From a virus: 64,000 nucleotides of DNA. Position numbers and translations under genes: made by a program. Shown here in pieces: positions 17,195 through 45,266 of the stretch. Within the stretch, counting starts at the first letter, position 1; every line of letters starts with the position of its first letter. The DNA lies in IMG/VR virus record IMGVR_UViG_3300010366_000011, positions 29,038 to 93,037 of that record; one strand, 5' to 3'. The notes below the pieces were generated by a model. It did not search any database and had not been told where the DNA came from. It saw nothing but the letters and a program-made list of their open reading frames with translations.

Positions 17195-17486
17195 CTGGAG
17201 GTTTGTTACCGCCAACGGCGGGGCCGGTCATTTCTGCCGGCCTCTCCCGGTCTCCCGGAAGCACGGACTATACCTTCGCCCCAGTGGGGCGCCCCGTGCC
17301 TAGTCTCTGAACCTTCCCGTCGAGCAATCCTCAGGCGGGCTCGGCTGCTGATTGCCCCTACCGGTGCGTTCTTGAACCGTCGCGCTCACCCTTTCGGATC
17401 ACGCTGTGGTCGCACCGTCTACCGGGGTGTCCCAGCAATTCTCGGGGTTTGTCATCCGCTTATTACTAAGCGGCGGAGCCTAGTGG
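17195..17486 (-). mobile_element. Group I self-splicing intron (292 nt, no internal ORF) in the major capsid gene
   Basis: Core motifs P AAUUGCUGGGACACCCC (17440-17424), Q AAUCAGCAGCC (17353-17343), R UUCAGAGACUAG (17311-17300), S AAGGUAUAGUCC (17276-17265). P1 GAGU^C-CACUA-GGCUC has a U.G pair at the 5' splice site. P2 has a GUAA loop and P9 a GAGA loop; terminal G at 17195. Confidence 0.92.
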
Positions 17487-19184
17487 ACTCATGTACTCCT
17501 GAACCGCGGTCCACTCCCATGCCGAGGGGATCTGCGAGTTCGGCACCGGGAGCGCCCACGTGAGGATCATGGCGTTGCCCGGCGGCATGTACGGGTGGAC
17601 CCGGATGTCCACCATGCGCCTCGTGGGAGACGACTGGTTCGTAATCCCCGTCACGATGGCGCCGATCATGGCGTCGTTGGTCTGGCCGGCGGGGAACGTG
17701 ATCCGGTAGCTCGAGCCCGACGGGTTGATCTTGATCAGGTCGCTGAGCTGCGACGAGTCACGTGCCGCCATCCACAGGTCTTCGGGGTCGGCGTATGTCT
17801 TCTCCCAGAGCTGCAGGAAGGCGTTCTGGAACTCGACGCCCGGGTTGCCGCTGGAGAGAGCGGCGTTCAGCCTGGTGTTGTACCCCCCCCGGGTACCATC
17901 GGAGACGATCGACATCATGCCGTCGCAGTCCGAGGCCGAGGCCGACGTGTCGCCACCGGTGGGCACCTTGGCCGTGGCCGTGAGCAGCGACGTCACACCA
18001 CCTGCGCCGATGGTGAAGGTGTTCCAGCCGGTCCTGCCCTGAAGGGCCCTCGTGGCGTCGCCCGGGTCCGCGCCTCCGGCGTTGGCCAGGTTGGCATAGA
18101 CGTTGTATCCCAGTGCTCCCTGGGCGTCGGTGCCGACCTTGACATCAATGACCTGGGTGACGCCGTTGGCGATGTTCACGGTGACGAGGGAAGACGGGAC
18201 CGACTCGCCGAACTCGGCCTGGCTCGTGACCTTGATGTAGACGTTCGTGCCTCCGGAGCCGGATCCGGTGATCCCGCCTTCCCCGGTGGCCGGGGCTCTC
18301 CCGGTACCGGTGACGGTCCCCGGAGCCGCAAGGGCACCCGAGCCACCGGAGTCCGTCGTGCGGCCGGCGAGGATCATGCGCTCGTCGGCGATCATGTGGG
18401 CGGTGAGCAGGACATATTGGCTCAACTGCCTGATGTCCTGGAATCCCTGGCCAGCGAATTGCGCCTCCCACGACACTTGATCCGACCAGGAGAATTGCTT
18501 GTAAGTTACTGTTTGGTCGTCGACAGTGTACGAAATCTTGGGTCCACGGATCAGGTAGAGGTTCTGCGCCGCACCCAAGTTGAAGTTGGTTTGGGTCACC
18601 TCGGTGATCCCGTGCCGTGTCGCCGCTCCGGCGGTGCCGATGCCCGAGCCCGTGAACCCGGTGATCCGCTTGAACCGGCGCACCAGGCCCTGGCCGGGCT
18701 GGCGAGGCAGGCGATTCCGAAGAGGGGAGAAGGTGGGCACGATGTACTTGGCCGGAGCCTCAAGGTCGAATGGGACCAGGCCCGTGCCCAGAGGCGACGT
18801 GGTCGTGATGTCCTTCATGACCTCGGCCTGCGCCGCCCGGTACGCGGTGATCTGCGCCTGCACGGATGCCAGAACCTCGGCACTGGTCCCCTTGAATATC
18901 TGGCCGATCAGGGGGTCCGAGGCGAACTGCGTGTAGATGTCTGCGGCGTTGGTCTTCTCGATCAGGCGTCCCTCGGCGAGGACCCGCCGCGTGCTGGGCT
19001 CGAGGTTCCAGCCGGTCTTCAGCCGGGTCTCTCCCGCCAGTGTGGAGCGGAACGAGTCGTCGATTGCCGTCTTGAACGCCTCGAAGCGTGCTGCCAGGGC
19101 CCGTGGGTCGGGCCTACCCAGAGAGTCGTGCCCGTAGTTCTCTACGAGGTCGCCCCCCAGGTCCTTCTCCAGATTCACTCCCAT
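17487..19184 (-). CDS. Major capsid protein, exon 1 (spliced product ~609 aa)
   Basis: Follows the protease; PFDLEAPAKYIVPTFSPLRNRLPR...; FN3/Ig-like insertion. The unspliced ORF ends at QEYMS-PLGSAA* inside the intron. Confidence 0.9.
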
Positions 19185-34339: not shown

Positions 34340-35569
34340 TCACGCCAGCTCCGGATGGAGGGCCGCCAGGCGCTCGAGCGCCACGGCGGTGTACTTCGGG
34401 ACCAGCTCCATGAGTCTCGCCCTCCGACCCCCCAGTTCGCATGCGACGGCGGTGCTGCCGCTCCCGCCGAAGGGATCGTAAACCAGCGCGCCCGGTTCAC
34501 TCGAATTTTCCAGAGCGCCGGTGATCAGCCCCAGGGGTTTGGTGGTCGGGTGCAGCTCGGAACGCTTCGGTCGGTCGACGTCAAGCACGGTGCTGGCGGC
34601 CTTGCCGTACCAGGGAAGCTCGCCCGCTCCCGTTCCCGTTGCTCCATAGAGCACATTCTCATGGCGGTAGTGGTAGTCCGAGTGACCGAGCACCATGGTG
34701 TCCTTCTTCCAGACCAGACTGCGCTCGAGGCGCCAGCCGGCGGCCCGGATCGCCCGCACGAAGATCAGCCAGTGCCGCCCTGCCGGGGCGGCACTGTAGA
34801 AAGGAGCGCTGGGGATCAGGTGCGAGGTGGCCACCCGGAACACCCGGGCGAGGAGGTCGGGAAGCTCCGCCAGGTGGTCGTTGTCGATCGTCAGGGCATC
34901 CGCCGTCTTCCCCTCGTAGTCGACGCCGTAAGGCGGATCCGTCCACAGCAGGTCTGCCAGCTTGCCGTCGAGAAGCCTCGCCACGGCGTCGGGGTCGCGG
35001 CTGTCCCCGCACATGAGCCGGTGCTCGCCAGCCACCCAGACCTGACCCGACGCCACCTTCCACTTCGCTTGCAGGGCCTCGGCGGCGTCGACGTCCTCGG
35101 CAAGACAGTCTTCATCACCAGCCGATCCCCCGGTACCGATCCCAACGCCGATCCCCTTGCCGAACCCTTCTAGCATGAGGGTCAGACCGGCGTGCAGATC
35201 CATAGCATCCATGTCAATCGAGCCCATGAGCGCCTCGTAGGCTTTCGGGCTGGCCTGCGCCAGCGCCGAAAGTGGGTCGACCAGCGCCAGGGCCAGGCGC
35301 TCCTCTTCCGGGCTCAGGTCGATGTAGCTGACCGGTACGACCGGCTCGTTGCGGCTGAGGGCAAGCGCCACGCGCAAGTGGCCGTCGACCACATGGCCGG
35401 TGCGTTCGTTGACCGTGATCTCCGAGATCCACCCCAGGGCCTCCAGGGCACCCTCGAGGGCTTCCCGCTGGTCGAGCGGGTGGATCCTCCAGTTGTCCGG
35501 ATGGGCCAGGAGGCTGCCCGGATCCATGAGGCCCGCTCCGGTAAGCCGGTTGCGCCAGGGATCAGCCAT
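34340..35569 (-). CDS. ParB-like N-terminal domain + N6/N4 DNA methyltransferase
   Basis: VVDGHLR; WTDPPY; HPTTKP; DPFGGSGST. Confidence 0.9.
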   Translation of the reverse strand: MADPWRNRLTGAGLMDPGSLLAHPDNWRIHPLDQREALEGALEALGWISEITVNERTGHVVDGHLRVALALSRNEPVVPVSYIDLSPEEERLALALVDPLSALAQASPKAYEALMGSIDMDAMDLHAGLTLMLEGFGKGIGVGIGTGGSAGDEDCLAEDVDAAEALQAKWKVASGQVWVAGEHRLMCGDSRDPDAVARLLDGKLADLLWTDPPYGVDYEGKTADALTIDNDHLAELPDLLARVFRVATSHLIPSAPFYSAAPAGRHWLIFVRAIRAAGWRLERSLVWKKDTMVLGHSDYHYRHENVLYGATGTGAGELPWYGKAASTVLDVDRPKRSELHPTTKPLGLITGALENSSEPGALVYDPFGGSGSTAVACELGGRRARLMELVPKYTAVALERLAALHPELA

Positions 35570-35737
35570 CGAAGTCCTCCGGCGCATCCATGGACGTGTC
35601 CATTCCCTGGGGCGCAGGCGGAGGGTGAATCCCTGAGCCGTTACGCGCCCTCCACTCCAGATCGCCATGCAGCCGGTGGGCCAGGGGGCGGAGCACATCA
35701 CCCACCCAGCGGGCAGCCGTGGCCAGCCGGTGGCGGA

Positions 35738-35956
35738 TCACGAGAAAACCACCGCCAGCCAAAACTCACCAAGCGGGTCTGCCCGTACCGATAAGCCCCG
35801 CGCCTCCGCCACGCGCAGCATCATCTCAGCGTTCTCGACGTGGACTGTGAACTCTCGCCGTCCCTCGCCGGTATGCACCCAGACCATGCCCAGCTCCACT
35901 TCCAGCGTAAAGCTGGGATCGTCGGTATCGAAAGGGAGAAGAGGCTCTGCCGTCAC
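35738..35956 (-). CDS. Hypothetical protein
   Basis: PLLPFDTDDPSFTLEVELGMVW...; GTGA coupling. Confidence 0.5.
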   Translation of the reverse strand: MTAEPLLPFDTDDPSFTLEVELGMVWVHTGEGRREFTVHVENAEMMLRVAEARGLSVRADPLGEFWLAVVFS

Positions 35957-37110
35957 GACAGCCGCCGGGGAGCCTCGCCGGTGAAGCCCTCGTACCGCTG
36001 CAGGGTCAGGGCGACCATCCAAGGGTTGGCGTCAATGGCTCGCGCGGACCTACGGAGCTGCTGGCAGGCAATAACGGTGGTCCCGCTGCCGGCGAAGGGG
36101 TCCAGCACGGAGCCCCCTGCAGGCGAGGAGTTGCGAATCCCGATCGCCGCCAGCTCCACCGGCGTGCTGCGAGGCCGGCGCGGGATCTCGAACACCGATG
36201 TCTGGGTGTTGTCGCCGTGCCAGCGGCTGGCGTCGCCCCGGCCTCGCCCTGCGCGACCGGTGCCGGGAAGGTAGCCATACAGCAGATCGCCATGGGCCTG
36301 GTTGTACCCAGGCTCGTCGGTGGCAGGGCCGTCCTGCACCCACGCCAGCGATTCGTGCAGCCGCCACCCCGCCGCCTCAACGGCCTCCCACGTTTCCAGA
36401 ACGGCTGCCGGCGGTGCCAGGACGTAGAACGGGCTCCGGGGCTCCAGGAAGGCCGAGACGTTGCGAAGAGCTCCAACCAGCGGGACGCCGGCTGGCGGGC
36501 TCGTCCAGACCATGGCCGCCTTGGCCCCGGCCATGAGCGCTGCCACGTCGTCTCTGGCGAGCACGTCGCCGCACATCACCCGATGGGAGCCGGCCGCCCA
36601 GAGCTGGCCCGGCTCCACCCCCCACTGCTCGAGGAGATCATCGCCATCCGGAACGTCGTCCTCGGTGACTGGCTGCTGGCCGAGGCCGGCGCCGACCGTG
36701 GTTGCCAGATCCTCGAGCATGGCAACGATCGCGGGGTTGTCCGTGCTGATATCTGCCAACACCACGCCCAACTTTTCTCTATCGGCGACTGCCATGGCTG
36801 CGATGGGGTCCAGGGTGGCAATAGCCAGAGCCTCCTCCGCCTCGGAGAGCTCGACATAGCTCACGGGCACCGTGGGGTCGCCACGGCCGGCCGCCAGTTC
36901 AACCCGAAGGTGTCCGTTCACCACGTAACCCGTAGAGCGATTCACCGTGACCCGCTGGATCCACCCCAACTCATCCAAGCTGCCGGTGGTGGCCTCGGCC
37001 TGCCGGCGGGGATGCAGCCGGAAGTTCCGAGGGTTGGCGACCAGCGCCTTCGGATCTTCGTCACCCTGGCCGACGATCCGCGTCCGCCAGCGGGGCGGCG
37101 CCTCCGGCAC
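35953..37110 (-). CDS. ParB-like + DNA methyltransferase paralogue with degenerate catalytic motif
   Basis: Collinear with 34340-35569; retains DPFAGSGTT but has WTSPPAG in place of DPPY. Confidence 0.8.
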   Translation of the reverse strand: MPEAPPRWRTRIVGQGDEDPKALVANPRNFRLHPRRQAEATTGSLDELGWIQRVTVNRSTGYVVNGHLRVELAAGRGDPTVPVSYVELSEAEEALAIATLDPIAAMAVADREKLGVVLADISTDNPAIVAMLEDLATTVGAGLGQQPVTEDDVPDGDDLLEQWGVEPGQLWAAGSHRVMCGDVLARDDVAALMAGAKAAMVWTSPPAGVPLVGALRNVSAFLEPRSPFYVLAPPAAVLETWEAVEAAGWRLHESLAWVQDGPATDEPGYNQAHGDLLYGYLPGTGRAGRGRGDASRWHGDNTQTSVFEIPRRPRSTPVELAAIGIRNSSPAGGSVLDPFAGSGTTVIACQQLRRSARAIDANPWMVALTLQRYEGFTGEAPRRLS

Positions 37111-37452
37111 TAGACGGCGAGCTCGGGGTCCCAGAGGCGGTGGTCGGGGCAGGTCACGGTGTAGGTGGCCGTGCCGACGTACTCGGCGATCAGCTCGTCC
37201 GTTCTCTTGCACCCTTCGCGCAGGCACATCCCGCCCGGGTCCTCGTGGGTCACGGACGAAATGATACGCAGGTGGGTGTGCCGCCGTCGAGAAGCCCGGC
37301 GGGGCTTCGCTCTGGCGTCGGTAGCTTCCATGATGTTCCTAATTGTATGGGCACCTCCCGAAGTCCACAAGCTGCTTTGTCTACAAGTTCCCTCGTCTCC
37401 TTGTCATCCGATAACTGGCTAAATCTACAATCTTAGAATCGTCCCGCATGGC

Positions 37453-37867: not shown

Positions 37868-38140
37868 ATGAACCACCAGTCGCAAGTCCCGCCCGTTGTC
37901 TATGCCTACCTCCGCAACATCGGCACCGATCCCCGCAGCCACCCGACGATCGCTCAGGTCTTCAAGCCCGGCCGCGGATGGGTCCGCTACCCGGGCCGCA
38001 AGTTCATCAGCGCCTCGTGGGCTCAGAAGCTCCGGGCCTCGGAAGGCGTCACGCACCTGGGCCTGCGGGTCGCCCCTGGCCGGGTCGCCGACTTCAGCGT
38101 CGCCGAGATCCTCCGGCGTAAGCCCTGGCCGGTGGCCTAG
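37868..38140 (+). CDS. Hypothetical protein
   Basis: AAGGAG SD. Confidence 0.65.
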   Translation: MNHQSQVPPVVYAYLRNIGTDPRSHPTIAQVFKPGRGWVRYPGRKFISASWAQKLRASEGVTHLGLRVAPGRVADFSVAEILRRKPWPVA

Positions 38141-38379
38141 TCGCTGTAGCTGAAGGGAACCGTAGAAGCGTCGGACCCCCCGGGATGGGGGGTCCTTTGT
38201 GTTGCGGCCTCGAGAACCTCGAGCGCCGTTTCGATGGCCCGCTGGCAGATCGCCGACCAGTTGATCTTGCCCGGCGCCCGGTCCATGCGGTCCCGCAGGG
38301 AATCCGGCAGGTAGACGTTCAGGGGACGGTGCTGGCGCTGCCGGCGCGGCGGTGGCCTCCAGGTCGGGTCTGTGGTCAT
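38137..38379 (-). CDS. Ribbon-helix-helix (Arc/CcdA-like) protein
   Basis: LNVYLPDSLRDRM...INWSAICQRAIE. Confidence 0.6.
   Translation of the reverse strand: MTTDPTWRPPPRRQRQHRPLNVYLPDSLRDRMDRAPGKINWSAICQRAIETALEVLEAATQRTPHPGGSDASTVPFSYSD
38173..38200 (+). terminator. Putative intrinsic terminator
   Basis: GGACCCCCC-GGGAT-GGGGGGTCC followed by TTTGT, after the two + strand genes. Confidence 0.55.
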
Positions 38380-38705
38380 CGCGCCACCGCTGGGAAGCTC
38401 GAGCTGTAAAGCGGCTCGGGAGCGGGGCCCCATATCTCCCCGACCTCGGTAGCTCCGCCGGGGCATACGTAGGCCCTGACCGACTCCCGGGCCCGGGTGG
38501 CATCGCAGGTCACCACCCCGCAGGCTGGGCACCACACGAAGATCCGCTGAGTCCGTCCGTCCGGCGCGGTGGCGACGATCCGCTCGAGGTCCCTGCCGCA
38601 GTGCTCACACATCACCGGCACCGACCCGGTGGTCACCGATGGGTCCCAGCCGATCAGGGCGTTCCAAGCGCTGGCAGCGTCCTCTCCCGGCCATGGCCTG
38701 TCCAC
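38376..38705 (-). CDS. Hypothetical Zn-ribbon protein
   Basis: CEHC...CPAC; abuts the rsr stop. Confidence 0.5.
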   Translation of the reverse strand: MDRPWPGEDAASAWNALIGWDPSVTTGSVPVMCEHCGRDLERIVATAPDGRTQRIFVWCPACGVVTCDATRARESVRAYVCPGGATEVGEIWGPAPEPLYSSSFPAVAR

Positions 38706-40394
38706 TTAGAACTCCCCGGCGGCGAAGCTGCGGACGATCTCCGGGAGGCTGGCGTCGAGGCCCACGCAGTGAAGCGTGAGTGGATCGAGGGTGTCACCGA
38801 TGCCTCCGGGGGTCGGCGTGAAGGCGCAGTCAATGAACCTGACCCCGGGTGCCACCTTCTTGCGGAGGCTCTCGAGCGCGATGGCCGGGTGCATCGAGCC
38901 CGCCCAGGTGGCGTTGTCGGTCAAAGCCACGATGGTCTCCGCCGGCAGACCCTCGGCTTCGCACCAGCGCATGGGCACCGAGGCATCGGTTGCCTCCGGT
39001 CGCATGTGGCTCACCGCGGCCACCGCTCCATGGAACCGCATCCGGGGACTGATGGTGAGGGCGATCGGCCTGGTGGTGAAGCCCAACACGAAGTACTCGG
39101 GCTCGGTGCGGGCGATGACCAGCGCCATGGCCGCTGCCGCCTCGGCCGCCGTGATCGGGTAGTCGGCCACCCGGTAGGTGGTCATGGAACCCGACACGTC
39201 GACCGCGATCAAGGTGCGCTTGCCGGTGGGCTCAACCCCAACCATGGCCGCCTCGAAAGCTTCCTCGAGAGCGTCATTGATCTGCTGGACCGGCGTCCAG
39301 GTGAGAGAGCCCCTTACCCCGTGGCCTTGGCCGTAGATCCGCCCGGCGAGTAGGACTGCCATGGGATGCACCCTGGCCTTGCTCAGCCGCTCCGGGCTCG
39401 TCAGCGTGGCCACGGCGCGCTTCAGGCCCTCGCTGAAGGGCTTGACCACTCCCAAGCTGGTGAGCCGTCCCAGGTTGCGAAGCAGCGCCGTCGGCGGCAT
39501 GGACTCGAGAAGGGCTGCCCAGACCTCCGGGCTGTCGTGCAGCTCGGTGGGAACCGTCTCCCAGGGCATCCGGTACACGCTGATGAGCTGGGCAGCGCGC
39601 TTGGGATCCCGGGTCGCCTGCAGCTCCTCAAAGATGCCGATGATCTCCGGGAAGCCCGCCGGCCGGTCGACGCCCGTGTCCGCCTCGCCCTTGCCAGCAG
39701 CCCAGGCAAGCAGGGGAGAGGGCCTGGCGTGGCTCAGGCGGAGCAGATCCCGGTGCGACCAGCCGTTGCGCTGGCGGTACTTCACGAGCTGGTAGGCGAG
39801 AGCGGCATCCTTCCGGCGCTGGATCTCAGCTCCGCCCATCCCGCTCTCGGGGTCGAGCATGCCCTCGTCAAACCCGGGGAGCTGAGGACTCATGGCCCCG
39901 CGGCTGTCGTACCAGGCAGCGATGGCCCGCCGTGCTCCCCGGCCCCATCCACCCATGGCGTCAATCGCAGCGGCGAAGTCAAAGATGTGAGTGCCGATCC
40001 GGCAGACCATGGGCACGGCGCCATAAGCCAGGGTGCGGGTGCGGTCGTCGCCAAGCTTCGCCGCCATGGCGAGGGCGAGGATGGCCGGGTCATTCTTCGG
40101 CGCCCGTCCGGTGTCGCTGATCTCGGCGATGCGCGCTACGGTGCGGGGCCCATCCTGGGCGATGCACCGACGGACCACCGCGGCGTTCTCCAAGGTCAGC
40201 TCCCGCTCACCGCTGTAGTAGGTCCCTCCTGCCGTTCCAAGAATCAGGAACCGGTCGAGCCTAGTCCAATCGTCAACCAGGAAGGTATAGCCGCCGGCCT
40301 CGTTGCGGCCCATGCGGGCCTCACGCCCTGGGATCGGCTGGCTCTGGGGGGTCCGGCGTGGATCGAGGTCTCGAAGGTACTGCTTGACCGCCAT
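38706..40394 (-). CDS. rsr: Ro60/TROVE domain RNA-binding protein (Rsr)
   Basis: NEAGGYTF, RLDRFLILGTAGGTYY, KYRQRNGWSHRDLLRLSH, ALLRNLGRLT, RVHP, vWA MIDAS DVSGSM; ATG 40394 with GGGAGGG SD (562 aa). Confidence 0.95.
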   Translation of the reverse strand: MAVKQYLRDLDPRRTPQSQPIPGREARMGRNEAGGYTFLVDDWTRLDRFLILGTAGGTYYSGERELTLENAAVVRRCIAQDGPRTVARIAEISDTGRAPKNDPAILALAMAAKLGDDRTRTLAYGAVPMVCRIGTHIFDFAAAIDAMGGWGRGARRAIAAWYDSRGAMSPQLPGFDEGMLDPESGMGGAEIQRRKDAALAYQLVKYRQRNGWSHRDLLRLSHARPSPLLAWAAGKGEADTGVDRPAGFPEIIGIFEELQATRDPKRAAQLISVYRMPWETVPTELHDSPEVWAALLESMPPTALLRNLGRLTSLGVVKPFSEGLKRAVATLTSPERLSKARVHPMAVLLAGRIYGQGHGVRGSLTWTPVQQINDALEEAFEAAMVGVEPTGKRTLIAVDVSGSMTTYRVADYPITAAEAAAAMALVIARTEPEYFVLGFTTRPIALTISPRMRFHGAVAAVSHMRPEATDASVPMRWCEAEGLPAETIVALTDNATWAGSMHPAIALESLRKKVAPGVRFIDCAFTPTPGGIGDTLDPLTLHCVGLDASLPEIVRSFAAGEF

Positions 40395-40418
40395 GTGTTC
40401 CCTCCCGGGCTGTAGGGT

Positions 40419-40550
40419 GCCGGATGAGTAGTTGGCATCGGGTTTTGGCGCTCTGGCCGCTGAGCTACAGGGTGCCCCTTGAGGACCCTGGCAGGATTTG
40501 AACCTGCGACCTCCCCATCCAGAGTGGTAACCGACGTCATCCGACCCGGC
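40419..40550 (-). ncRNA. yrlA: YrlA-type Y RNA (tRNA-mimic)
   Basis: Terminal stem GCCGGGUCGGAUGAC.../...ACUCAUCCGGC. It encloses T-arm GCAGG-UUCAAAU-CCUGC, a closed acceptor-like hairpin CAGGGU...ACCCUG, then D-arm UAGCUCAGCGGCCAGAGC (permuted order). Directly upstream of rsr. Confidence 0.88.
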
Positions 40551-40555
40551 TAGAC

Positions 40556-40586
40556 AGTATGTGCATACGTAGGACCGGGCTGTCAA
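40556..40586 (-). promoter_or_regulatory. Promoter for yrlA-rsr
   Basis: TTGACA-19-CATACT, 5 nt before the RNA 5' end. Confidence 0.65.
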
Positions 40587-40621
40587 GGCTTCGGTAGCAG
40601 CGTCAGGCGGTAGAGGGGTAC

Positions 40622-40742
40622 GGGGACCGGATGAGTTGTGGACGTCGGATGGCCCGGTTTCCCGGGTTGCAGGTTCTTGGCCTGCGGGTCTCGGGCATAT
40701 GCCCGTGGCAAGATAACCGACTGATCCTCCGACCCAGTCCCC
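40622..40742 (-). ncRNA. Y RNA-like ncRNA #2
   Basis: GGGGACUGGGUCGGA...GUCGGUUAUC...ACUCAUCCGGUCCCC: same terminal motifs as yrlA, with three internal hairpins. Confidence 0.75.
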
Positions 40743-40757
40743 TACCGGTCTTTGAGT

Positions 40758-40836
40758 GCCGGATGAGTGTTCGGGGTGGGAGAGCCCGAAGGCGTCTCAG
40801 TCCAATGAGATAACCCACTAACCCGTCCGACCCGGC
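40758..40836 (-). ncRNA. Y RNA-like ncRNA #1
   Basis: GCCGGGUCGGA...GUGGGUUAUC...ACUCAUCCGGC; internal UCUCA/UGAGA and GCC-UUCG-GGC hairpins. Confidence 0.75.
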
Positions 40837-40841
40837 CCGGG

Positions 40842-40872
40842 ATTATGGGCATATCCTCCGGCGGGTTGTCAA
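40842..40872 (-). promoter_or_regulatory. Promoter for Y RNAs #1/#2
   Basis: TTGACA-19-CATAAT, 5 nt before the RNA 5' end; same geometry as the yrlA promoter. Confidence 0.65.
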
Positions 40873-41001
40873 GGGTAGCGACCAGCTCACGTCCTGGTTC
40901 CCACGGGGGCTCGCCGCTCACCACCCGTAGCTGCAGGTGCCAGTGGGCATCGAAGATCGCCCCAGGTTCCCAAGGTCCCTCGCCGCTCACCACGGTCAGC
41001 T

Positions 41002-41289
41002 TCATCGCATGATCCGATCCAAGTCCCGCTCAAGCCGGGCCCGGCGAGCCTCCGGTGACCAGTAGCCCTCATCCGGGCCCGGGAGCAGACTTGGCGTCGC
41101 CGGCCCCTGGCTGGCCACGACAGGCTCTTTGCCGGCGTGGGTGGGGCAATGATCTCGAGATGGGTGTTGGTGCGCCCAGCCGTGATCAGCGGCCCAGCGC
41201 CGGGCCTCTATGCGGTCGACGTGATCCGGCGTCCTGGTGTCACAGGTCGGGTGGTCGCAGCGAATCCAGATGTGCTCCTCGACGCTCAC
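41002..41289 (-). CDS. Hypothetical Zn-binding protein
   Basis: IRCDHPTC...GW...DHCPTH; GTGA coupling. Confidence 0.55.
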   Translation of the reverse strand: MSVEEHIWIRCDHPTCDTRTPDHVDRIEARRWAADHGWAHQHPSRDHCPTHAGKEPVVASQGPATPSLLPGPDEGYWSPEARRARLERDLDRIMR

Positions 41290-41732
41290 CGGATCACATC
41301 CGCATAGACGATGGTTACCCGATCATCAAGAAGAGGAGCGATCGCCGGGCCTACCTCCGCCCAAGCGAGCCGGCCATTTCCGCACCCAGGTCTGGTCAGA
41401 AGGATGGCCTCCAACCCCATACGATCCGCCAGATCCATTAGCTCCCCACAGGACCTGCCGATCAGAGCGAGGTCTGCGGGCTGACGCCAATGGTGCTTGA
41501 CCGGGAAGCTGATCAGCATCGGCTCGCCCGGCATAAAGAGATCAACGACGTGGTTCCCGCGACGCCGGATGGATTCGCCAAGGATCTTCGGTAGTCGGGG
41601 GTACCGCTGGGCTGCCTGGGCTGCCGTCCCCCGTCCCATGACCGCGGTCCCATCCTTGCGGGTGGCACCGTTGACCGTGATGCAGCGGGCGTCGCCCGGC
41701 AGCCGCCAGAGGTCCCCGCTGGCTTGCTTCAT
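41286..41732 (-). CDS. Macrodomain (ADP-ribose binding/hydrolase, DarG/TARG1-like) protein
   Basis: GDLW...ITVNG...VMGRGTA...ISFPVKHHW...RPGCGNGRLAW; ATGA coupling. Confidence 0.8.
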   Translation of the reverse strand: MKQASGDLWRLPGDARCITVNGATRKDGTAVMGRGTAAQAAQRYPRLPKILGESIRRRGNHVVDLFMPGEPMLISFPVKHHWRQPADLALIGRSCGELMDLADRMGLEAILLTRPGCGNGRLAWAEVGPAIAPLLDDRVTIVYADVIR

Positions 41733-42028
41733 GCCGGCCATCCTCCCACCGGGTCGTATGCGATACCAAGCTCGCAGCCGTTGTCGACCTCGTCCGGTGT
41801 GGCCTGTCGGCTCGCCCATCCCTGGGTAGCAGCACAGCGCAGGCAGCGCCATTGCTCGCGGCTCCGGTCCCAGCGCCAATGGGTCTCTACTCCGCACGAC
41901 CCACAGGGCTGTACGGCGGGGTGCTCGGACGGAGACCCGGGGATGGCGGGGCCAGGACCGGTGTCGAAGAGGCGAGTAACCAATGAAGACTCCCTTTCCC
42001 TATCCGCGCTTGCTGGGCTTCTCCGCAC
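41729..42028 (-). CDS. Hypothetical Zn-ribbon protein
   Basis: CGSC...CLRC. Confidence 0.45.
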   Translation of the reverse strand: MRRSPASADRERESSLVTRLFDTGPGPAIPGSPSEHPAVQPCGSCGVETHWRWDRSREQWRCLRCAATQGWASRQATPDEVDNGCELGIAYDPVGGWPA

Positions 42029-42245
42029 AGGTCACCCAGTGGTTCAGGTGGAGCGCCTTCCCTGCTCGCTCGTCCTTCGGCACCACTCGGTAAGTCCCCG
42101 CCGTCTCGTTGATCTCTATGTTGCCGTCGGAGCTCGGGCCAACATCGATCGGCGCTGAGATGCCGGTCCTGAGATGGCGAAGCCAGAGCACCGGAGCCCG
42201 GCATCCGTCCTGACGACAATATCCCCGCCTGCTGCGCTGGGTCAC
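42000..42245 (-). CDS. Hypothetical protein
   Basis: CRAPVLW...PIDVGPSSDGNI...HLNHWVTC, a common actinophage-type pattern. Confidence 0.55.
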   Translation of the reverse strand: MTQRSRRGYCRQDGCRAPVLWLRHLRTGISAPIDVGPSSDGNIEINETAGTYRVVPKDERAGKALHLNHWVTCAEKPSKRG

Positions 42246-43903
42246 AGGAGCATTCCCTGGGCTTCGGCCCACGATCTGGCAGTCGCCTTCGCCCATTGCT
42301 TGGGTTGGGCTACTCGCCAGCAGGCAAGGCGAGCATAGTCGGCGCTCAGGTCCAGCCCGACACCGTGGCGGCCGAGGGCCTGGGCAACACCGACGGTCGT
42401 ACCCGTTCCGCAGAAGGGATCGAGAACCACAGCCGGGCGGGATGGGGGCGGGATCCAGCGGTCAAGGTGGTACTCGCGCCACGGGCCAACCTTGGGGCGA
42501 GCGGAATAGTCCTGCTTGCCGCCCCAGTTCTGGCCCTTCGACGCGCTGGCCATACCGTGAGCAATCGCCTCCGCATGACGCATGCCACCATTCCCGCTCC
42601 TTGGATGGTCCGTAAAGGGGGTGCAGGCGCAGGCATAGCCAAGGATGGTGGCCTGCGTGCTACCGACAGGGGCGTTCCCGTTCATCCCGCGAGAGTTTCC
42701 ATTTGGCTCGCTCCCATCACGCTTTCCCGGACAGCGCTGGGTGGTCTCGTGATCCACTTCGAGCCGCTTCTCCACCACCGGTCTCCGCCCCTCGCCGCAG
42801 CGCAGGCAGATGGCAGGAGGGCTCCAACCCAGAATGATCCGACGAGGCAGCTCCGTCGGGAAGGCCGCGAAGTGATCTATGTCGAGCATTGTCATGGGCT
42901 GGGTGACTCCCTGGCGAAGCCTGTCCTCCACCATCCGCCAGAGCGCCACCAGCCCGGGGTAGACGGGATCGAGCGCTTGCGGGTAGTCAAAGAGCCCTCC
43001 CCCCTCATAGCCAACCGGCTTCTTGAGTGTTCCCTTGCGGATCTCCTGCCACTCACCGCCGACCTCCACGAAATAGTCCGGGAGCGACAGCGGCTCGGTG
43101 GCCATGCGCCAGATAGAGCCGGGCAGTTTACCAAGCGGATTGGTCTCACTTGGCCCACCATCACCGGCGCCGCTGGAGTAGATGTCCCGGATCTCGTCCA
43201 CAGCGCTGTAGTAGCTCTCCGATTTGGTCAGGTGGTAGAGGTACTCGAAGTCGTCCCGGGTCCGGTCCTGCACGCTCTCTGGCAACCCGTTCGCCTTTTC
43301 CCAGATCCCCACCTGGCGGGCGATCCAGCCCATGCCGCGGTACTCGGTGCATCCACACTCTAGGCACCCGACCACCCAGTGGTGATCCCCTTGTCGGTGG
43401 GTGCATCGGCAGACCCCCGAGGCCACGCCATCCTCGCAGCCGATGATGAACCGCTCGGGAAGTAGCTGGCGGGACTTGGAACGTCCGAAGGCTGCCTGTT
43501 CGTAGCGGTCGGGCGCGTTGCGCCGGGTGGCCTTGATCTTGTTGGGCGACCCGTCTGCGGCCACTCCACCTCTATGTCCGGTTCCGCTCAACGTCGACTT
43601 CTCTGAGATCCCATCGTTGTTGTGTCCCCCGCTTCCCGACCGCTTGTCGCCCAGGTTGATCCAGACCGAGCCGTCCGGCGTGAGCACCCGCCAGCATTCG
43701 GCCATGACGGTCCACAGCGCCTCAAGATAGAGACTGGGATGGCTCTCGTCGCCCACCTGGCCGCTGTAGTGGCTCTGGCTGTCGAGGTAGCTCCGCAGGG
43801 CGAAGTAGGGGGGGCTGGTCACGATCAGGTGCACCGAGGCGTCGGCCAGCGGGATCCGTAGGGCGTCGCCTCGGAGAATCAGAGTTGCCGGCGTGGGGCT
43901 CAT
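42242..43903 (-). CDS. DNA (N4-cytosine type) methyltransferase with large insertions
   Basis: VTSPPYF, RVLTPDGSVWINLGD, HFAAFPTEL, VLDPFCGTGTT. Confidence 0.9.
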   Translation of the reverse strand: MSPTPATLILRGDALRIPLADASVHLIVTSPPYFALRSYLDSQSHYSGQVGDESHPSLYLEALWTVMAECWRVLTPDGSVWINLGDKRSGSGGHNNDGISEKSTLSGTGHRGGVAADGSPNKIKATRRNAPDRYEQAAFGRSKSRQLLPERFIIGCEDGVASGVCRCTHRQGDHHWVVGCLECGCTEYRGMGWIARQVGIWEKANGLPESVQDRTRDDFEYLYHLTKSESYYSAVDEIRDIYSSGAGDGGPSETNPLGKLPGSIWRMATEPLSLPDYFVEVGGEWQEIRKGTLKKPVGYEGGGLFDYPQALDPVYPGLVALWRMVEDRLRQGVTQPMTMLDIDHFAAFPTELPRRIILGWSPPAICLRCGEGRRPVVEKRLEVDHETTQRCPGKRDGSEPNGNSRGMNGNAPVGSTQATILGYACACTPFTDHPRSGNGGMRHAEAIAHGMASASKGQNWGGKQDYSARPKVGPWREYHLDRWIPPPSRPAVVLDPFCGTGTTVGVAQALGRHGVGLDLSADYARLACWRVAQPKQWAKATARSWAEAQGMLL

Positions 43904-44081
43904 ACCTCGAGGCGGACCTGGTTTCGGGACACGCCGCTCACCTCCTCGGCATGCAGGCTGTCTGGGGCGTGTAGCGGGCACAGCGGATCTTTGGCCTCCT
44001 CCGGCGCAGGGCAGGTGCAGCGCCCGTGGTTCGGACACCAGGTGGCGGCCAGGCCGGTACATCTTGGACGAGGCTCGCGGC

Positions 44082-45266
44082 TCATGAGGGAAACTCACTC
44101 CATACCCGGTCGTCCAACTCACGGCCAGCGGCCTTCCTGCCCACCCGGTACATCGCCGTCAGGTTCGCCCGGTCGTGGTGCGCCCGGGTTGCCTCTCCCC
44201 AACGCGGCCCGTCCGGGTAGCTCAGATCCTCGGCACGGTACAGGGTCCCATCGTCGGCCAAGACGTGGCCATTCCGGAAGTCAAACACCCCGTCGCGCAT
44301 GGGCGCCAGCGGACTCCACTCACCCCATTGCTTAAAGAAATACGGCACCCCCGCGGCCACGCTCTGATCCCGGATTGTCCGTGCCCAGTCAGGATGCATC
44401 GGCCTAGCACCTGAGCCGCTCTCACCACCGACGATCACCCACGAAATCGATGGTGGACTGTCCACGCTTTCCCAGTGCTTGCCATCGGGAGTCAGGCGAG
44501 GAAAGCCAATCCATCGGTCAAGGCGGATCGGCCCGAGCAGCGGCTCGCAGGAGAGGAAGCGCACGGCGGCTGGCGTCTGCAACAACAGGGGGATACGTTG
44601 ATCGGCCCAGCGCTGGTTCTCCACACTGACGCCGAGCCAGACATTCGGAAGTACCGTCGGCCACCATCGTTCACCGTCCATCCAGTCGTACGGCGGATGC
44701 ACGCAGCCCTCGGGCGGATCACCCAAGCTCATGCGCCAGTCAGCGAACATCTTGGCGCGCCCGGAGCCGACTACCGCCTGGGCCTGCTCCAACGTGACAT
44801 CCCCGACCGGCGACGCCTTCGCCGGCTCACCCGGCCTCCACAGCGTGGGGCCGACGTATACCGGCCCTCTATCGGCTAGCTTCTCGAACCACGAGAGCAT
44901 CCGGCGAGGGCGCTTCGTGAGGATCTGGTAGATGTGCTGCGGCGTCTGCGCCATCACGCGCCACACGGCGTAGATGAACCAATCCGGCACGCCGTCGTGG
45001 AATAGGTCACTCATGCTATTGACGAAGATCCGCCGGGGCGTCCAGTGAAACGGCTTCCCCAGCACGTCAGGGTGGATGGTCAACCCAAACCCGGGCCCGC
45101 TTGTCTTCGGATTCCCGTCACACCGGTACCGGGCAGATCCCATCGCCTTGAGGCGCCTGGCGTCCCGCAGCGCGTAGCAGTTGTCACACCCCTCCGACAC
45201 CCGGTCGCAGCCGGTGACGGGATTCCAAGTCGCGTCGGTCCATTCGATCGCGCTCTTGTCACTCAC
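44082..45266 (-). CDS. Phage Gp37/Gp68 (DUF5131) protein
   Basis: IEWTDATWNPVTGCDRVSEGCDNCYA, FVNSMSDLFH, LTKRP, NVWLGVSVEN, FLSCEPLLG, WVIVGGESG, FFKQWG. Confidence 0.92.
   Translation of the reverse strand: MSDKSAIEWTDATWNPVTGCDRVSEGCDNCYALRDARRLKAMGSARYRCDGNPKTSGPGFGLTIHPDVLGKPFHWTPRRIFVNSMSDLFHDGVPDWFIYAVWRVMAQTPQHIYQILTKRPRRMLSWFEKLADRGPVYVGPTLWRPGEPAKASPVGDVTLEQAQAVVGSGRAKMFADWRMSLGDPPEGCVHPPYDWMDGERWWPTVLPNVWLGVSVENQRWADQRIPLLLQTPAAVRFLSCEPLLGPIRLDRWIGFPRLTPDGKHWESVDSPPSISWVIVGGESGSGARPMHPDWARTIRDQSVAAGVPYFFKQWGEWSPLAPMRDGVFDFRNGHVLADDGTLYRAEDLSYPDGPRWGEATRAHHDRANLTAMYRVGRKAAGRELDDRVWSEFPS

What the first reader, a model, noticed from the sequence alone, without database searches (positions are those of the whole stretch)
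38706..40872. Phage Ro60 (Rsr) locus with an array of three different Y RNAs and two matched promoters
Seen: a complete TROVE-vWA gene is preceded by three non-coding units (40758-40836, 40622-40742, 40419-40550). All share the 5' motif GGGUCGGA...GU(C/G)GGUUA(U/C)C and the 3' motif ACUCAUCCGG, which pair as a terminal stem, but their interiors differ completely: two small hairpins, three hairpins, or a tRNA-like domain. Two TTGACA-19-CATA(A/C)T promoters each sit 5 nt before an RNA 5' end. Known: bacterial Rsr binds Y RNAs whose variable domain recruits partners (PNPase in Deinococcus), and yrlA/yrlB flank rsr in Salmonella. Inference: this phage encodes a modular RNP with one Ro ring and three interchangeable RNA adaptors, possibly redirecting host RNA decay/repair or countering tRNA-targeting defences. 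I recognised no rtcB in the window.
Basis: partly seen in the sequence, partly recalled or inferred. Interest (0 to 1): 0.92.

Follow-up and report, generated by a model that had tools for sequence, protein, structure and literature searches.

The report
Phage Ro60 with three Y RNAs
An uncultured soil phage carries a gene for the ring-shaped RNA-binding protein Ro60 (Rsr), preceded by three small structured RNA genes of the Y RNA family; the arrangement is real but ordinary, because similar arrays of two to five Y RNA genes sit beside Ro60 genes in many other phages and bacteria.

Summary
A complete TROVE+vWA rsr gene lies at 38706-40394 on the minus strand. Upstream are three units, at 40836-40758, 40742-40622 and 40550-40419. 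All three share GGGUCGGA...GGUUAYC at the 5' end and ACUCAUCCGG at the 3' end, and their interiors differ. Two TTGACA-N19-CATAMT sites each end 5 nt before a unit, and this pattern occurs nowhere else in the 93-kb phage record.

Comparative evidence shows the units are Y RNA genes. A covariance model built only from units at six other rsr loci finds exactly these three in the window. The terminal helix is 100% paired across 15 units, and 7 of its 13 pairs show compensatory changes. At 240 rsr loci, all 284 model hits lie on the rsr strand.

U3 is a YrlA-type permuted tRNA mimic. U1 and U2 keep the Ro-binding stem but lack the full tRNA-like domain.

The arrangement is not unusual. Forty-three of the 240 loci have three or more units, and mycobacteriophage Cali appears to have three. 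Phage Ro60 with two upstream Y RNAs has already been studied experimentally (Thermus phage phiLo, 2025). Expression, Rsr binding and any anti-defence role remain untested. Verdict: a new member of a known kind, of moderate interest.

The parts
40842..40872 (-). P1: promoter-like site. TTGACA at 40872-40867, 19-nt spacer, CATAAT at 40847-40842. It ends 5 nt before U1.
   Evidence: the pattern occurs only twice in the 93-kb record. The consensus scan missed it because that scan allows spacers of only 16-18 nt. Function is inferred.
40758..40836 (-). U1: short Y RNA, 79 nt. It has the Ro-binding terminal stem, an upper stem, UUAUC, a V-arm-like hairpin and a small UUCG hairpin. It has no tRNA-like domain.
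   Evidence: R1 60.4 bits. Leave-window-out model R2 43 bits, E 8.8e-7. Fold. Same architecture as L003 283-359 and as Acidimicrobiaceae MAG L164 1888-1966.
40622..40742 (-). U2: intermediate Y RNA, 121 nt. It has an 11+2 bp terminal stem and three hairpins. The middle hairpin (GCAGG, 7-nt loop, CCUGC) has the same stem as U3's T-arm but a non-T loop. There is no D-arm.
   Evidence: R1 70.4 bits. R2 34 bits, E 5.8e-5. MFE -58.7 kcal/mol, z -3.35.
40556..40586 (-). P2: promoter-like site. TTGACA at 40586-40581, 19-nt spacer, CATACT at 40561-40556. It ends 5 nt before U3.
   Evidence: It shares CTTGACAnCCCG and TATGCnCATAnT with P1. L001 has TTGACA-N19-TATACT before its first unit.
40419..40550 (-). 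U3: YrlA-type Y RNA, 132 nt. T-arm at 40507-40491 (loop UUCAAAU), closed acceptor-like hairpin at 40490-40468, UA, then D-arm at 40465-40450. The Y stem replaces the anticodon arm.
   Evidence: Rfam YrlA 34.1 bits, E 1.4e-5, below the gathering score of 69. R1 74 bits. R2 58 bits, E 8e-10. ARAGORN's 'tRNA-Gln' at 40483-40560 is an artefact of the T-arm; the Rfam tRNA model gives only 17.3 bits.
38706..40394 (-). rsr (Ro60 ortholog), 562 aa. GGGAGG ribosome-binding site at 40406-40401, ATG at 40394, 24 nt after the end of U3.
   Evidence: Pfam TROVE + vWA_Ro60. phrog_850. PDB matches to Ro60 chains 9NEN and 1YVP and to D. radiodurans Rsr 2NVO at E 1e-93 to 5e-98. The N-terminus aligns from residue 1 with homologues, and the DxSxS MIDAS residues D399, S401 and S403 are invariant.
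38376..38705 (-). 109-aa ORF with CxxC...CxxC, starting directly after the rsr stop codon. Possibly co-transcribed.
   Evidence: No Pfam or PHROG match. Not found at other rsr loci. Whether it belongs to the system is uncertain.
38173..38195 (.). GC-rich palindromic hairpin between the minus-strand rsr unit and convergent plus-strand genes. Candidate terminator.
   Evidence: 10-bp stem. Only the plus-strand T-tail was scored.

Best explanation
The locus is a phage Ro60/Rsr ribonucleoprotein cassette with three Y RNA genes. Shown: the three units are members of one structured-RNA family that is found specifically next to rsr and on its strand. They share a sequence-invariant helix (GGGUCGG paired with CUCAUCC across a C-C mismatch) flanked by covarying base pairs, an upper stem ending in GG, and UUAYC. 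Inferred by homology: host sigma-A-type RNA polymerase starts at P1 and P2, exactly at the first paired nucleotide of U1 and U3. P1 would yield a U1-U2 precursor and P2 a U3-rsr(-orf109) transcript, from which U2 and the 3' ends are trimmed. Rsr would bind the conserved helix of each RNA; its 5' strand, GUCGGANG, is this clade's version of the GNCGAAN0-1G / GGUCCGA Ro-binding motif. The three different distal modules would then present different surfaces. U3 is a tRNA-shaped module, like the one that tRNA enzymes recognise in Salmonella and M. smegmatis YrlA. U1 and U2 are hairpin modules that could contact PNPase or other exoribonucleases, as in the RYPER complexes of Deinococcus and of Thermus phage phiLo. 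The net effect would be to retarget or gate host structured-RNA decay during infection.
For: The motifs are unique in the 93-kb record. In a MAFFT alignment of 15 units from 6 loci, 90.1% of cells are paired versus 73.5% in shuffles. Fourteen pairs show double changes, 0 of 500 shuffles reach the observed values, and slid controls give 37-52% pairing. The terminal helix is 100% paired, with 7 of 13 pairs covarying. Model R2, built without the window's sequences, hits only U3, U1 and U2 in 64 kb on both strands (58, 43 and 34 bits). R1 finds only these three in the whole record. R1 gives 124 + 83 + 77 hits at 240 rsr loci, all on the rsr strand and none inside rsr. U3 has an Rfam YrlA hit at E 1.4e-5, on a par with mycobacteriophage Cali. 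Rsr is complete and canonical. Promoter-like sites abut units ten times versus 0.5 expected by chance. Literature: YrlA and YrlB lie upstream of M. smegmatis rsr and are processed from one precursor, and YrlA was found in 22 phages (PMC4201824). Y RNAs are modular (bioRxiv 10.1101/312249). PhiLo Ro60 binds two upstream Y-like RNAs and host PNPase (PMC12135203).
Against: There are no expression or binding data, and no RNA run holds the sequence. U1 and U3 do not fold significantly better than shuffled sequence. U3 is below Rfam's YrlA gathering score, and the metazoan Y_RNA model gives no hit at E<=10. The promoters have an unusual 19-nt spacer and were not called by the consensus scan. Open reading frames overlap the units: an 87-aa ORF at 40742-41005 over P1 and U1, and a 626-aa TTG-started extension of rsr over U3. 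However, the overlapping part shows no codon-position GC bias, and homologues start at the ATG. The partner proteins and the biological role are entirely inferred.
Confidence: 0.85

Rival explanations
1. Only U3 (YrlA type) is a functional Y RNA. U1 and U2 are decaying duplicates of its stem module with no role of their own.
For: U2's middle hairpin has the same GCAGG/CCUGC stem as U3's T-arm but a non-T loop, which looks like a degenerate copy. U1 folds no better than shuffled sequence.
Against: Short units of 60-79 nt are the commonest class at rsr loci (127 of 284 hits). U1 has close structural counterparts at L003 and in an Acidimicrobiaceae MAG (L164). The terminal helices of U1 and U2 are perfectly paired, with sequences that differ from each other and from U3. 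U1 has its own promoter-like site. Short second Y RNAs such as YrlB and Yrl2 are bound by Ro in studied systems (PMC4201824, PMC12135203).
Confidence: 0.07
2. The units act in cis as leader, processing or attenuator elements that control rsr mRNA, for example by Rsr binding its own 5' UTR. They would not be stable trans-acting RNP components.
For: U3 ends 24 nt before the rsr start codon and shares promoter P2 with it. In related loci the last unit also ends 25-45 nt before rsr. No terminator was found between the units and rsr.
Against: In M. smegmatis the same layout yields stable, Rsr-bound YrlA and YrlB processed from a precursor (PMC4201824). Twenty-eight of the 284 units lie downstream of rsr. 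U1 and U2 are separated from rsr by a second promoter. A cis role could also coexist with the trans role.
Confidence: 0.05
3. The units are tRNA-derived pseudogenes or repeats, or parts of protein-coding ORFs: ARAGORN's tRNA-Gln, the 626-aa rsr extension, or the 87-aa ORF.
For: ARAGORN calls a tRNA-Gln at 40483-40560. Long ORFs cover U1 and U3.
Against: The Rfam tRNA model scores 17.3 bits against a threshold of 29, and there is no anticodon arm or free acceptor end. Homologues of Rsr begin at the ATG at 40394, which has a GGGAGG ribosome-binding site. GC by codon position over the P1/U1 part of the 87-aa ORF is flat at 0.61/0.57/0.64. RNA-level covariation and strand-specific model hits are not expected of coding sequence.
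Confidence: 0.02

Closest known systems
Mycobacteriophage cluster C (Bxz1, ET08, Cali) Ro gene with YrlA (Pedulla 2003; Chen et al. 2014, PMC4201824)
   Same: A tailed phage of a high-GC host encodes a full Ro60 ortholog with a YrlA-type RNA upstream on the same strand. Rfam YrlA scores are similar: 36.1 bits for Cali versus 34.1 here. By my reading, Cali's 485-nt gap also holds three units: short, YrlA, short.
   Different: The gene shows only about 67% nucleotide identity, over about a quarter of its length. The Ro-binding motif differs: GGCCGAN...CAYCAUGUCU in Cali versus GGGUCGGA...CUCAUCC here. The order of units differs, with YrlA in the middle in Cali and next to rsr here. R1 does not reach Cali's units at E<=0.1.
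Mycobacterium smegmatis YrlA/YrlB-rsr locus (PMC4201824)
   Same: Several Y RNAs lie directly upstream of rsr on the same strand and are processed from a common precursor. One is tRNA-like and the other has only a possible T-arm, much as U3 compares with U2. The YrlA gene lies hidden inside an over-extended rsr ORF annotation, as it does here.
   Different: M. smegmatis has two RNAs, not three. It is a cellular locus, not a phage one. Its YrlA has a 7-bp acceptor stem cleaved by RNase P, whereas U3 has 6 bp plus an extension.
Thermus phage phiLo Ro60 with Yrl1 and Yrl2 (NAR 2025, PMC12135203; PDB 9KOP, 9L5Y)
   Same: A phage Ro60 with more than one Y-like RNA gene immediately upstream. Binding was shown experimentally, as was a ternary complex with host PNPase. 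This is the proposed working model for the present locus.
   Different: The protein is only distantly related (E 1.2e-5 to 9KOP, versus 1e-95 to D. radiodurans Rsr). PhiLo's RNAs are described with a CGAA motif and one or two hairpins, and no tRNA-like module is reported.
Salmonella Typhimurium rsr-yrlBA-rtcBA and Deinococcus radiodurans Yrn1/Yrn2-rsr (RYPER)
   Same: One Ro ring with two or more Y RNAs that share a Ro-binding stem and differ in their effector module. The YrlA layout of T-arm, acceptor stem and D-arm, the GNCGAA-like motif and the YUAY motif are all present.
   Different: There is no RtcB or RtcA here. The Y RNAs are upstream, not downstream as in Salmonella. The promoters look like sigma-70-type sites, not sigma-54/RtcR-dependent ones.
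Metazoan Y RNA families (several Y RNAs per species bound by one Ro60)
   Same: The concept of several Y RNAs with a conserved bulged Ro-binding helix (GGUCCGA-like 5' strand) and divergent loops. The window's Rsr is as close to Xenopus Ro60 (1YVP) and to Ro60 entry 9NEN as to D. radiodurans Rsr.
   Different: The Rfam Y_RNA model gives no hit at E<=10. A resemblance of U1's 5' half to vertebrate Y RNA sequences is only my recollection and was not tested.

Membership tests
Bacterial/phage Y RNA (YrlA lineage, Chen et al. 2014) | Encoded within 4 kb of rsr and on the same strand | tested here: met
   All three units lie 24-442 nt upstream of rsr on the minus strand. At 240 loci, all 284 hits are on the rsr strand.
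Bacterial/phage Y RNA (YrlA lineage, Chen et al. 2014) | The 5' and 3' ends pair in a long stem that carries a conserved 5'-strand Ro-binding motif (GNCGAAN0-1G, resembling GGUCCGA) | tested here: met
   The terminal helix is 100% paired with 7 covarying pairs. The 5' strand reads GUCGGANG in all three units, one substitution (A to G) from the published motif.
Bacterial/phage Y RNA (YrlA lineage, Chen et al. 2014) | Conserved YUAY at the start of the variable loop | tested here: met
   UUAU in U1 and U2, UUAC in U3. GGTTA is invariant in all 15 aligned units.
YrlA proper (tRNA-like effector module; Rfam RF02553) | T-arm, closed acceptor-like stem, UA, and D-arm, in that order | tested here: met
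   Met for U3 only: GCAGG-UUCAAAU-CCUGC, CAGGGU...ACCCUG, UA, GCUC-AGCGGCCA-GAGC. U1 and U2 lack it and are therefore YrlB-like, not YrlA.
YrlA proper (tRNA-like effector module; Rfam RF02553) | Score at or above Rfam's gathering threshold (69 bits) | tested here: not met
   34.1 bits, E 1.4e-5. Relatives, including mycobacteriophage Cali, score 36-45 bits. The threshold therefore excludes this whole branch, which includes the phage group where YrlA was first reported.
Bacterial/phage Y RNA | Stable small RNA bound by Rsr in vivo | not testable with these tools
   No RNA run holds the sequence. The phage is uncultured.
Ro60/Rsr protein | TROVE (HEAT-repeat ring) plus a C-terminal vWA domain with a DxSxS MIDAS motif | tested here: met
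   Pfam PF05731 and PF25045. D399, S401 and S403 are invariant in 22 homologues. E 1e-93 to 5e-98 to solved Ro60/Rsr structures.
Metazoan Y_RNA (Rfam RF00019) | Match to the covariance model | tested here: not met
   No hit at E<=10 in 40300-41000.
tRNA | Full cloverleaf with anticodon arm; Rfam tRNA model at 29 bits or more | tested here: not met
   17.3 bits. The ARAGORN call at 40483-40560 uses only the T-arm and flanking sequence.
RtcB-linked RNA repair operon (rsr-yrlBA-rtcBA) | RtcB ligase encoded with rsr | tested here: not met
   No PF01139 match in the 93-kb record, which is 89% complete by CheckV.

The most novel reading that the evidence does not exclude
The three Y RNAs are functionally specialised adaptors that direct one phage Ro ring to three different host partners during infection. 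The tRNA-shaped U3 would act as a decoy or sensor for tRNA-directed host defences such as anticodon nucleases, or would recruit tRNA enzymes. U1 and U2 would recruit exoribonucleases. The separate promoters P1 and P2 would let the phage dose the adaptors independently of Rsr. More broadly, multi-member Y RNA arrays of up to five units, in two size classes, would be a general and so far undescribed feature of Ro biology in bacteria and phages.
Probability: 0.15. Interest if true: 0.7.

Novelty: new member of a known kind. Interest (0 to 1): 0.4.

Why it matters
Ro60 is a conserved RNA-surveillance protein and a major human autoantigen, and what it does in phages is still largely unknown. This locus is compact (about 2.2 kb) and appears self-contained. 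It has candidate host-type promoters, one canonical Ro60 and three structurally distinct Y RNAs, so it could be cloned and used to ask which partners each Y RNA module recruits. The survey made here also shows that arrays of several Y RNAs are common at rsr loci. They come in a short class (60-79 nt) and a tRNA-like class (120-139 nt). They occur in phages and in many bacterial phyla, and are mostly unannotated. This widens the published picture of one or two Y RNAs per species. It also gives a covariance model (R1/R2) for annotating them and for avoiding false tRNA calls and over-extended rsr ORFs.

Tried and rejected
- The search for related loci with the single protein found nothing in viral contigs. 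The alignment query worked.
- The Rfam gathering-threshold scan of the window reported no Y RNA family, only a group I intron.
- The consensus promoter scan found no sites in 38000-42000, because it allows spacers of only 16-18 nt.
- Sequencing runs: no RNA holder is listed. The only full holder may be the source sample. The second run covers only a 32-nt T-arm-like piece from another organism. This gives no evidence on expression and no independent variant.
- The Annual Review paper on bacterial Ro60 (PMC10870794) is not held.
- Neighbouring small ORFs (109 aa downstream; 87, 95 and 203 aa upstream) are not conserved at other rsr loci. I therefore rejected the idea of a conserved protein partner encoded in the cassette.
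- A strict regex descriptor found units at only 7 loci. The covariance model replaced it.
- Considered and rejected: a real tRNA-Gln, an N-terminally extended Rsr, and REP-like repeats.
Full report
**What is there**

The window is the 3' 64 kb of a 93,037-bp IMG/VR virus record. The record is linear, 89% complete by CheckV, 66% G+C, and comes from a soil metagenome. It is a tailed phage: large terminase, portal, head protein/protease, tape measure and tail spike were all recognised.

On the minus strand, an ORF from ATG 40394 to 38706 encodes a 562-aa protein.
- It carries TROVE (7.6e-35) and Ro60-type vWA (1.4e-36) domains and belongs to phrog_850 'RNA-binding protein'.
- It matches Ro60 chains 9NEN and 1YVP (Xenopus) and Deinococcus Rsr at E 1e-93 to 5e-98. 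It matches the Thermus phage phiLo Ro60 only at 1e-5.
- Homologues align from residue 1, and the DxSxS MIDAS residues are invariant.
- A GGGAGG ribosome-binding site lies at 40406-40401.
- The 626-aa TTG-started ORF that gene finders may report is therefore an over-extension across U3. The same trap was described for M. smegmatis (PMC4201824).

**The observation**

There are three units:
- U1: 40836-40758, 79 nt
- U2: 40742-40622, 121 nt
- U3: 40550-40419, 132 nt

Each begins with a terminal-stem strand that contains GGGUCGGA. An upper-stem strand ending in GG and the motif UUAYC follow. Each unit ends with ACUCAUCCGG.

Counts over the whole 93-kb record, both strands:
- ACTCATCCGG occurs three times, only at the units.
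- The exact GT[CG]GGTTA[TC]C pattern occurs only at the units.
- TTGACA-N19-CATA[AC]T occurs twice, at 40872-40842 and 40586-40556.

Each -10 hexamer ends 5 nt before the first paired G of U1 or U3. The two promoter-like sites also share CCCG after the -35 hexamer and TATGCnCATAnT around the -10. The consensus scan missed them because it allows spacers of only 16-18 nt.

MFE folds give a closed terminal stem in all three units. The interiors are two hairpins (U1), three hairpins (U2), and T-arm / closed stem / D-arm (U3). Stability alone is significant only for U2 (z -3.35; U1 -0.52; U3 -1.51).

**Are they real RNA genes of one family?**

I collected 240 rsr loci: 80 from metagenomes, 80 from IMG/VR and 80 from GTDB genomes.

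*Closest relatives.* A strict descriptor (GGTCG[GA]..GGTTA..TCATCC plus terminal pairing) found 19 units, all on the rsr strand. They included 3 at L001, 4 at L004 (the same contig as IMG/VR L081), and 2 at a truncated L003.

*Covariation.* A MAFFT alignment of 15 units, made without structural guidance, aligned both ends cleanly. On it:
- 90.1% of cells are paired, versus 73.5% in shuffles and 37-52% when partners are slid.
- 14 of 22 pairs show changes on both sides, and 0 of 500 shuffles reach the observed values.
- The 13-bp terminal helix is 100% paired. Six pairs are invariant: the GGGU.GG / CU.AUCC core, which contains a conserved C-C mismatch. Seven pairs covary.

*Covariance models.*
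- R1, built from this alignment, finds only the three units in the window and in the whole record.
- R2, built only from 14 units at six other loci (A6), still finds exactly U3, U1 and U2 in 64 kb on both strands. Scores are 58, 43 and 34 bits (E 8e-10, 9e-7, 6e-5), with nothing else at E<=1. This is the independent test.
- Across the 240 loci, R1 gives 124 + 83 + 77 hits. Every one is on the rsr strand and none is inside rsr; 256 lie upstream and 28 downstream.
- On the 124-hit alignment, 91.4% of cells pair and 16 of 19 pairs show double changes. That alignment was fitted to the model, so it leans towards the structure.

**What each unit is**

*U3* matches Rfam YrlA at 34.1 bits (E 1.4e-5), below the gathering score of 69. 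Related units score 36-45 bits, including 36.1 for mycobacteriophage Cali, which belongs to the phage group where YrlA was first reported. The threshold is therefore too strict for this branch. U3 has the YrlA order:
- a GNCGAA-like motif (GUCGGAUG)
- an upper stem, the anticodon-stem analogue
- YUAY (UUAC) opening a long variable arm
- a T-arm with loop UUCAAAU
- a closed 6-bp acceptor-like stem
- UA
- a D-arm with GG in its loop

These are the features defined in PMC4201824 and confirmed structurally in bioRxiv 10.1101/312249. ARAGORN's tRNA-Gln call is an artefact, since the Rfam tRNA model gives 17.3 bits against a threshold of 29.

*U1* keeps the stem, YUAY and a variable-arm-like hairpin. 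A small UUCG hairpin replaces the tRNA core. It has close architectural counterparts at L003 and in an Acidimicrobiaceae MAG (L164 1888-1966), directly upstream of rsr.

*U2* has three hairpins. The middle one has the same GCAGG/CCUGC stem and 7-nt loop size as U3's T-arm, but a non-T loop. A GAAA-capped hairpin follows, and there is no D-arm. I read U2 as a diverged tRNA-like module, comparable to M. smegmatis YrlB, which has 'a possible T-arm'. This last reading is inference.

**How it most likely works**

*Shown:* family membership, the covarying stem, and linkage to rsr on the same strand.

*Inferred from the known systems:*
- P1 drives a U1-U2 precursor. P2 drives U3-rsr and perhaps the 109-aa CxxC ORF, ending near the hairpin at 38173-38195.
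- Transcripts would start at the first paired base, so U1 and U3 would need no 5' processing.
- Rsr binds the invariant helix and protects the ends.
- The different heads tether or gate the ring. The tRNA-like head of U3 would engage tRNA-recognising proteins. The hairpin heads would engage exoribonucleases such as PNPase, as in Deinococcus RYPER and phiLo (PMC12135203).

The locus sits among three DNA methyltransferase genes, DUF5131, DUF2303 and a protein with a DnaA-type helix-turn-helix domain. That is the non-structural part of the genome. No RtcB is present, and there are no genuine tRNA genes. An anti-defence role is possible but untested.

**How unusual is it?**

It is not very unusual.
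- By the clade-biased R1 model, 43 of 240 loci have three or more units, including 13 of the 80 IMG/VR loci. The maximum is five.
- Lengths are bimodal, at 60-79 nt and 120-139 nt. A T-loop motif is present in 114 of 284 hits.
- Mycobacteriophage Cali's 485-nt gap upstream of Ro holds, by my reading, a short unit, a YrlA unit and another short unit. Each has GGCCGAN...UCGGUUAYC...CAYCAUGUCU and a 7-15 bp terminal helix.
- The literature already has YrlA in 22 phages, YrlA+YrlB upstream of M. smegmatis rsr (PMC4201824), and two Y-like RNAs upstream of phiLo Ro60, with binding and PNPase recruitment shown (PMC12135203).
- I found no paper describing arrays of three or more. The library is incomplete, however, and Chen et al. 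explicitly expected more Y RNAs to be found.

Promoter-like sites that abut a unit recur: 10 of 284 units versus 0.5 expected by chance, including TTGACA-N19-TATACT at L001.

**Origin**

The closest Rsr in the protein database is 81% identical and comes from a 3-kb JGI contig. The next best are at most 59% identical. The nearest genome-derived proteins are from Acidimicrobiales/Acidimicrobiaceae MAGs at 49-51%. The Y RNAs of the Acidimicrobiaceae MAG L164 carry the same GGGUCGG / CUCAUCC core. This weakly points to an Actinomycetota host or donor, possibly Acidimicrobiia.

**Earlier scan notes**

The scan had already noted the YrlA-type mimic at 40419-40550 (e1-6001045). It had also noted the phage's conjugation genes and the capsid-gene intron. 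These notes agree with what I saw but were not used as evidence.

**Verdict**

This is a new member of a known kind. The general prevalence of Y RNA arrays is the more useful by-product. Interest is 0.4.

Noticed in passing
L001 2369-2431; L017 941-1008; L004 2039-2102: In related arrays, some Y RNA heads match the Rfam tRNA model above its threshold (46, 34.2 and 34.1 bits, model positions about 5-66). They are non-permuted tRNA bodies (D-arm, anticodon-like arm, T-arm) grafted onto the Ro-binding stem in place of the acceptor stem. This topology differs from the permuted YrlA type of U3.
   Followed up: partly
240 rsr loci (L001-L160, L163-L242): Arrays of two to five Y-like RNAs are common next to rsr in phages and in Verrucomicrobiota, Chloroflexota, Myxococcota and Actinomycetota. 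There are two size classes (60-79 and 120-139 nt). All 284 model hits are on the rsr strand.
   Followed up: partly
L162 (Mycobacterium phage Cali NC_011271.1) 1972-2325: The unannotated 485-nt gap upstream of the Ro gene appears to hold three Y-like units, not one: a short unit, a YrlA unit at 2067-2218, and a short unit at 2242-2325. Their own shared motifs are GGCCGAN, UCGGUUAYC and CAYCAUGUCU.
   Followed up: partly
L017 1179-1251: A bona fide tRNA gene (62 bits) sits directly after a run of Y-like units about 1.3 kb upstream of rsr in this metagenome contig.
   Followed up: no
window 17244-17504 (-): A group I intron (Rfam 58.8 bits) lies next to the gene at 17466-19184. An earlier scan note describes it as an intron in the capsid gene.
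   Followed up: no
window 34340-35701, 35953-37227, 42242-44122 (-): Three separate N6/N4 DNA methyltransferase genes flank the rsr cassette, suggesting a cluster for evading restriction.
   Followed up: no
window 40483-40560 (-), 38706-40586 (-), 40742-41005 (-): Three annotation traps. ARAGORN calls a false tRNA-Gln on U3's T-arm. A 626-aa TTG-started ORF extends rsr over U3 and P2. An 87-aa ORF, whose ATG overlaps the preceding stop codon, runs through P1 and U1 with flat codon-position GC in that part.
   Followed up: partly
window 41286-41897 (-): A 203-aa protein two genes upstream of P1 matches phrog_335 'phosphatase' (5.7e-19) and has no Pfam hit. Any link to RNA-end chemistry is unknown.
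   Followed up: no
window 40836-40800 (-): From memory only, the 5' half of U1 (GGUCGGA...GUGGGUUAUCUCAUUGGA) resembles the 5' part of vertebrate Y RNAs. The Rfam Y_RNA model gave no hit, so this is an untested recollection.
   Followed up: no
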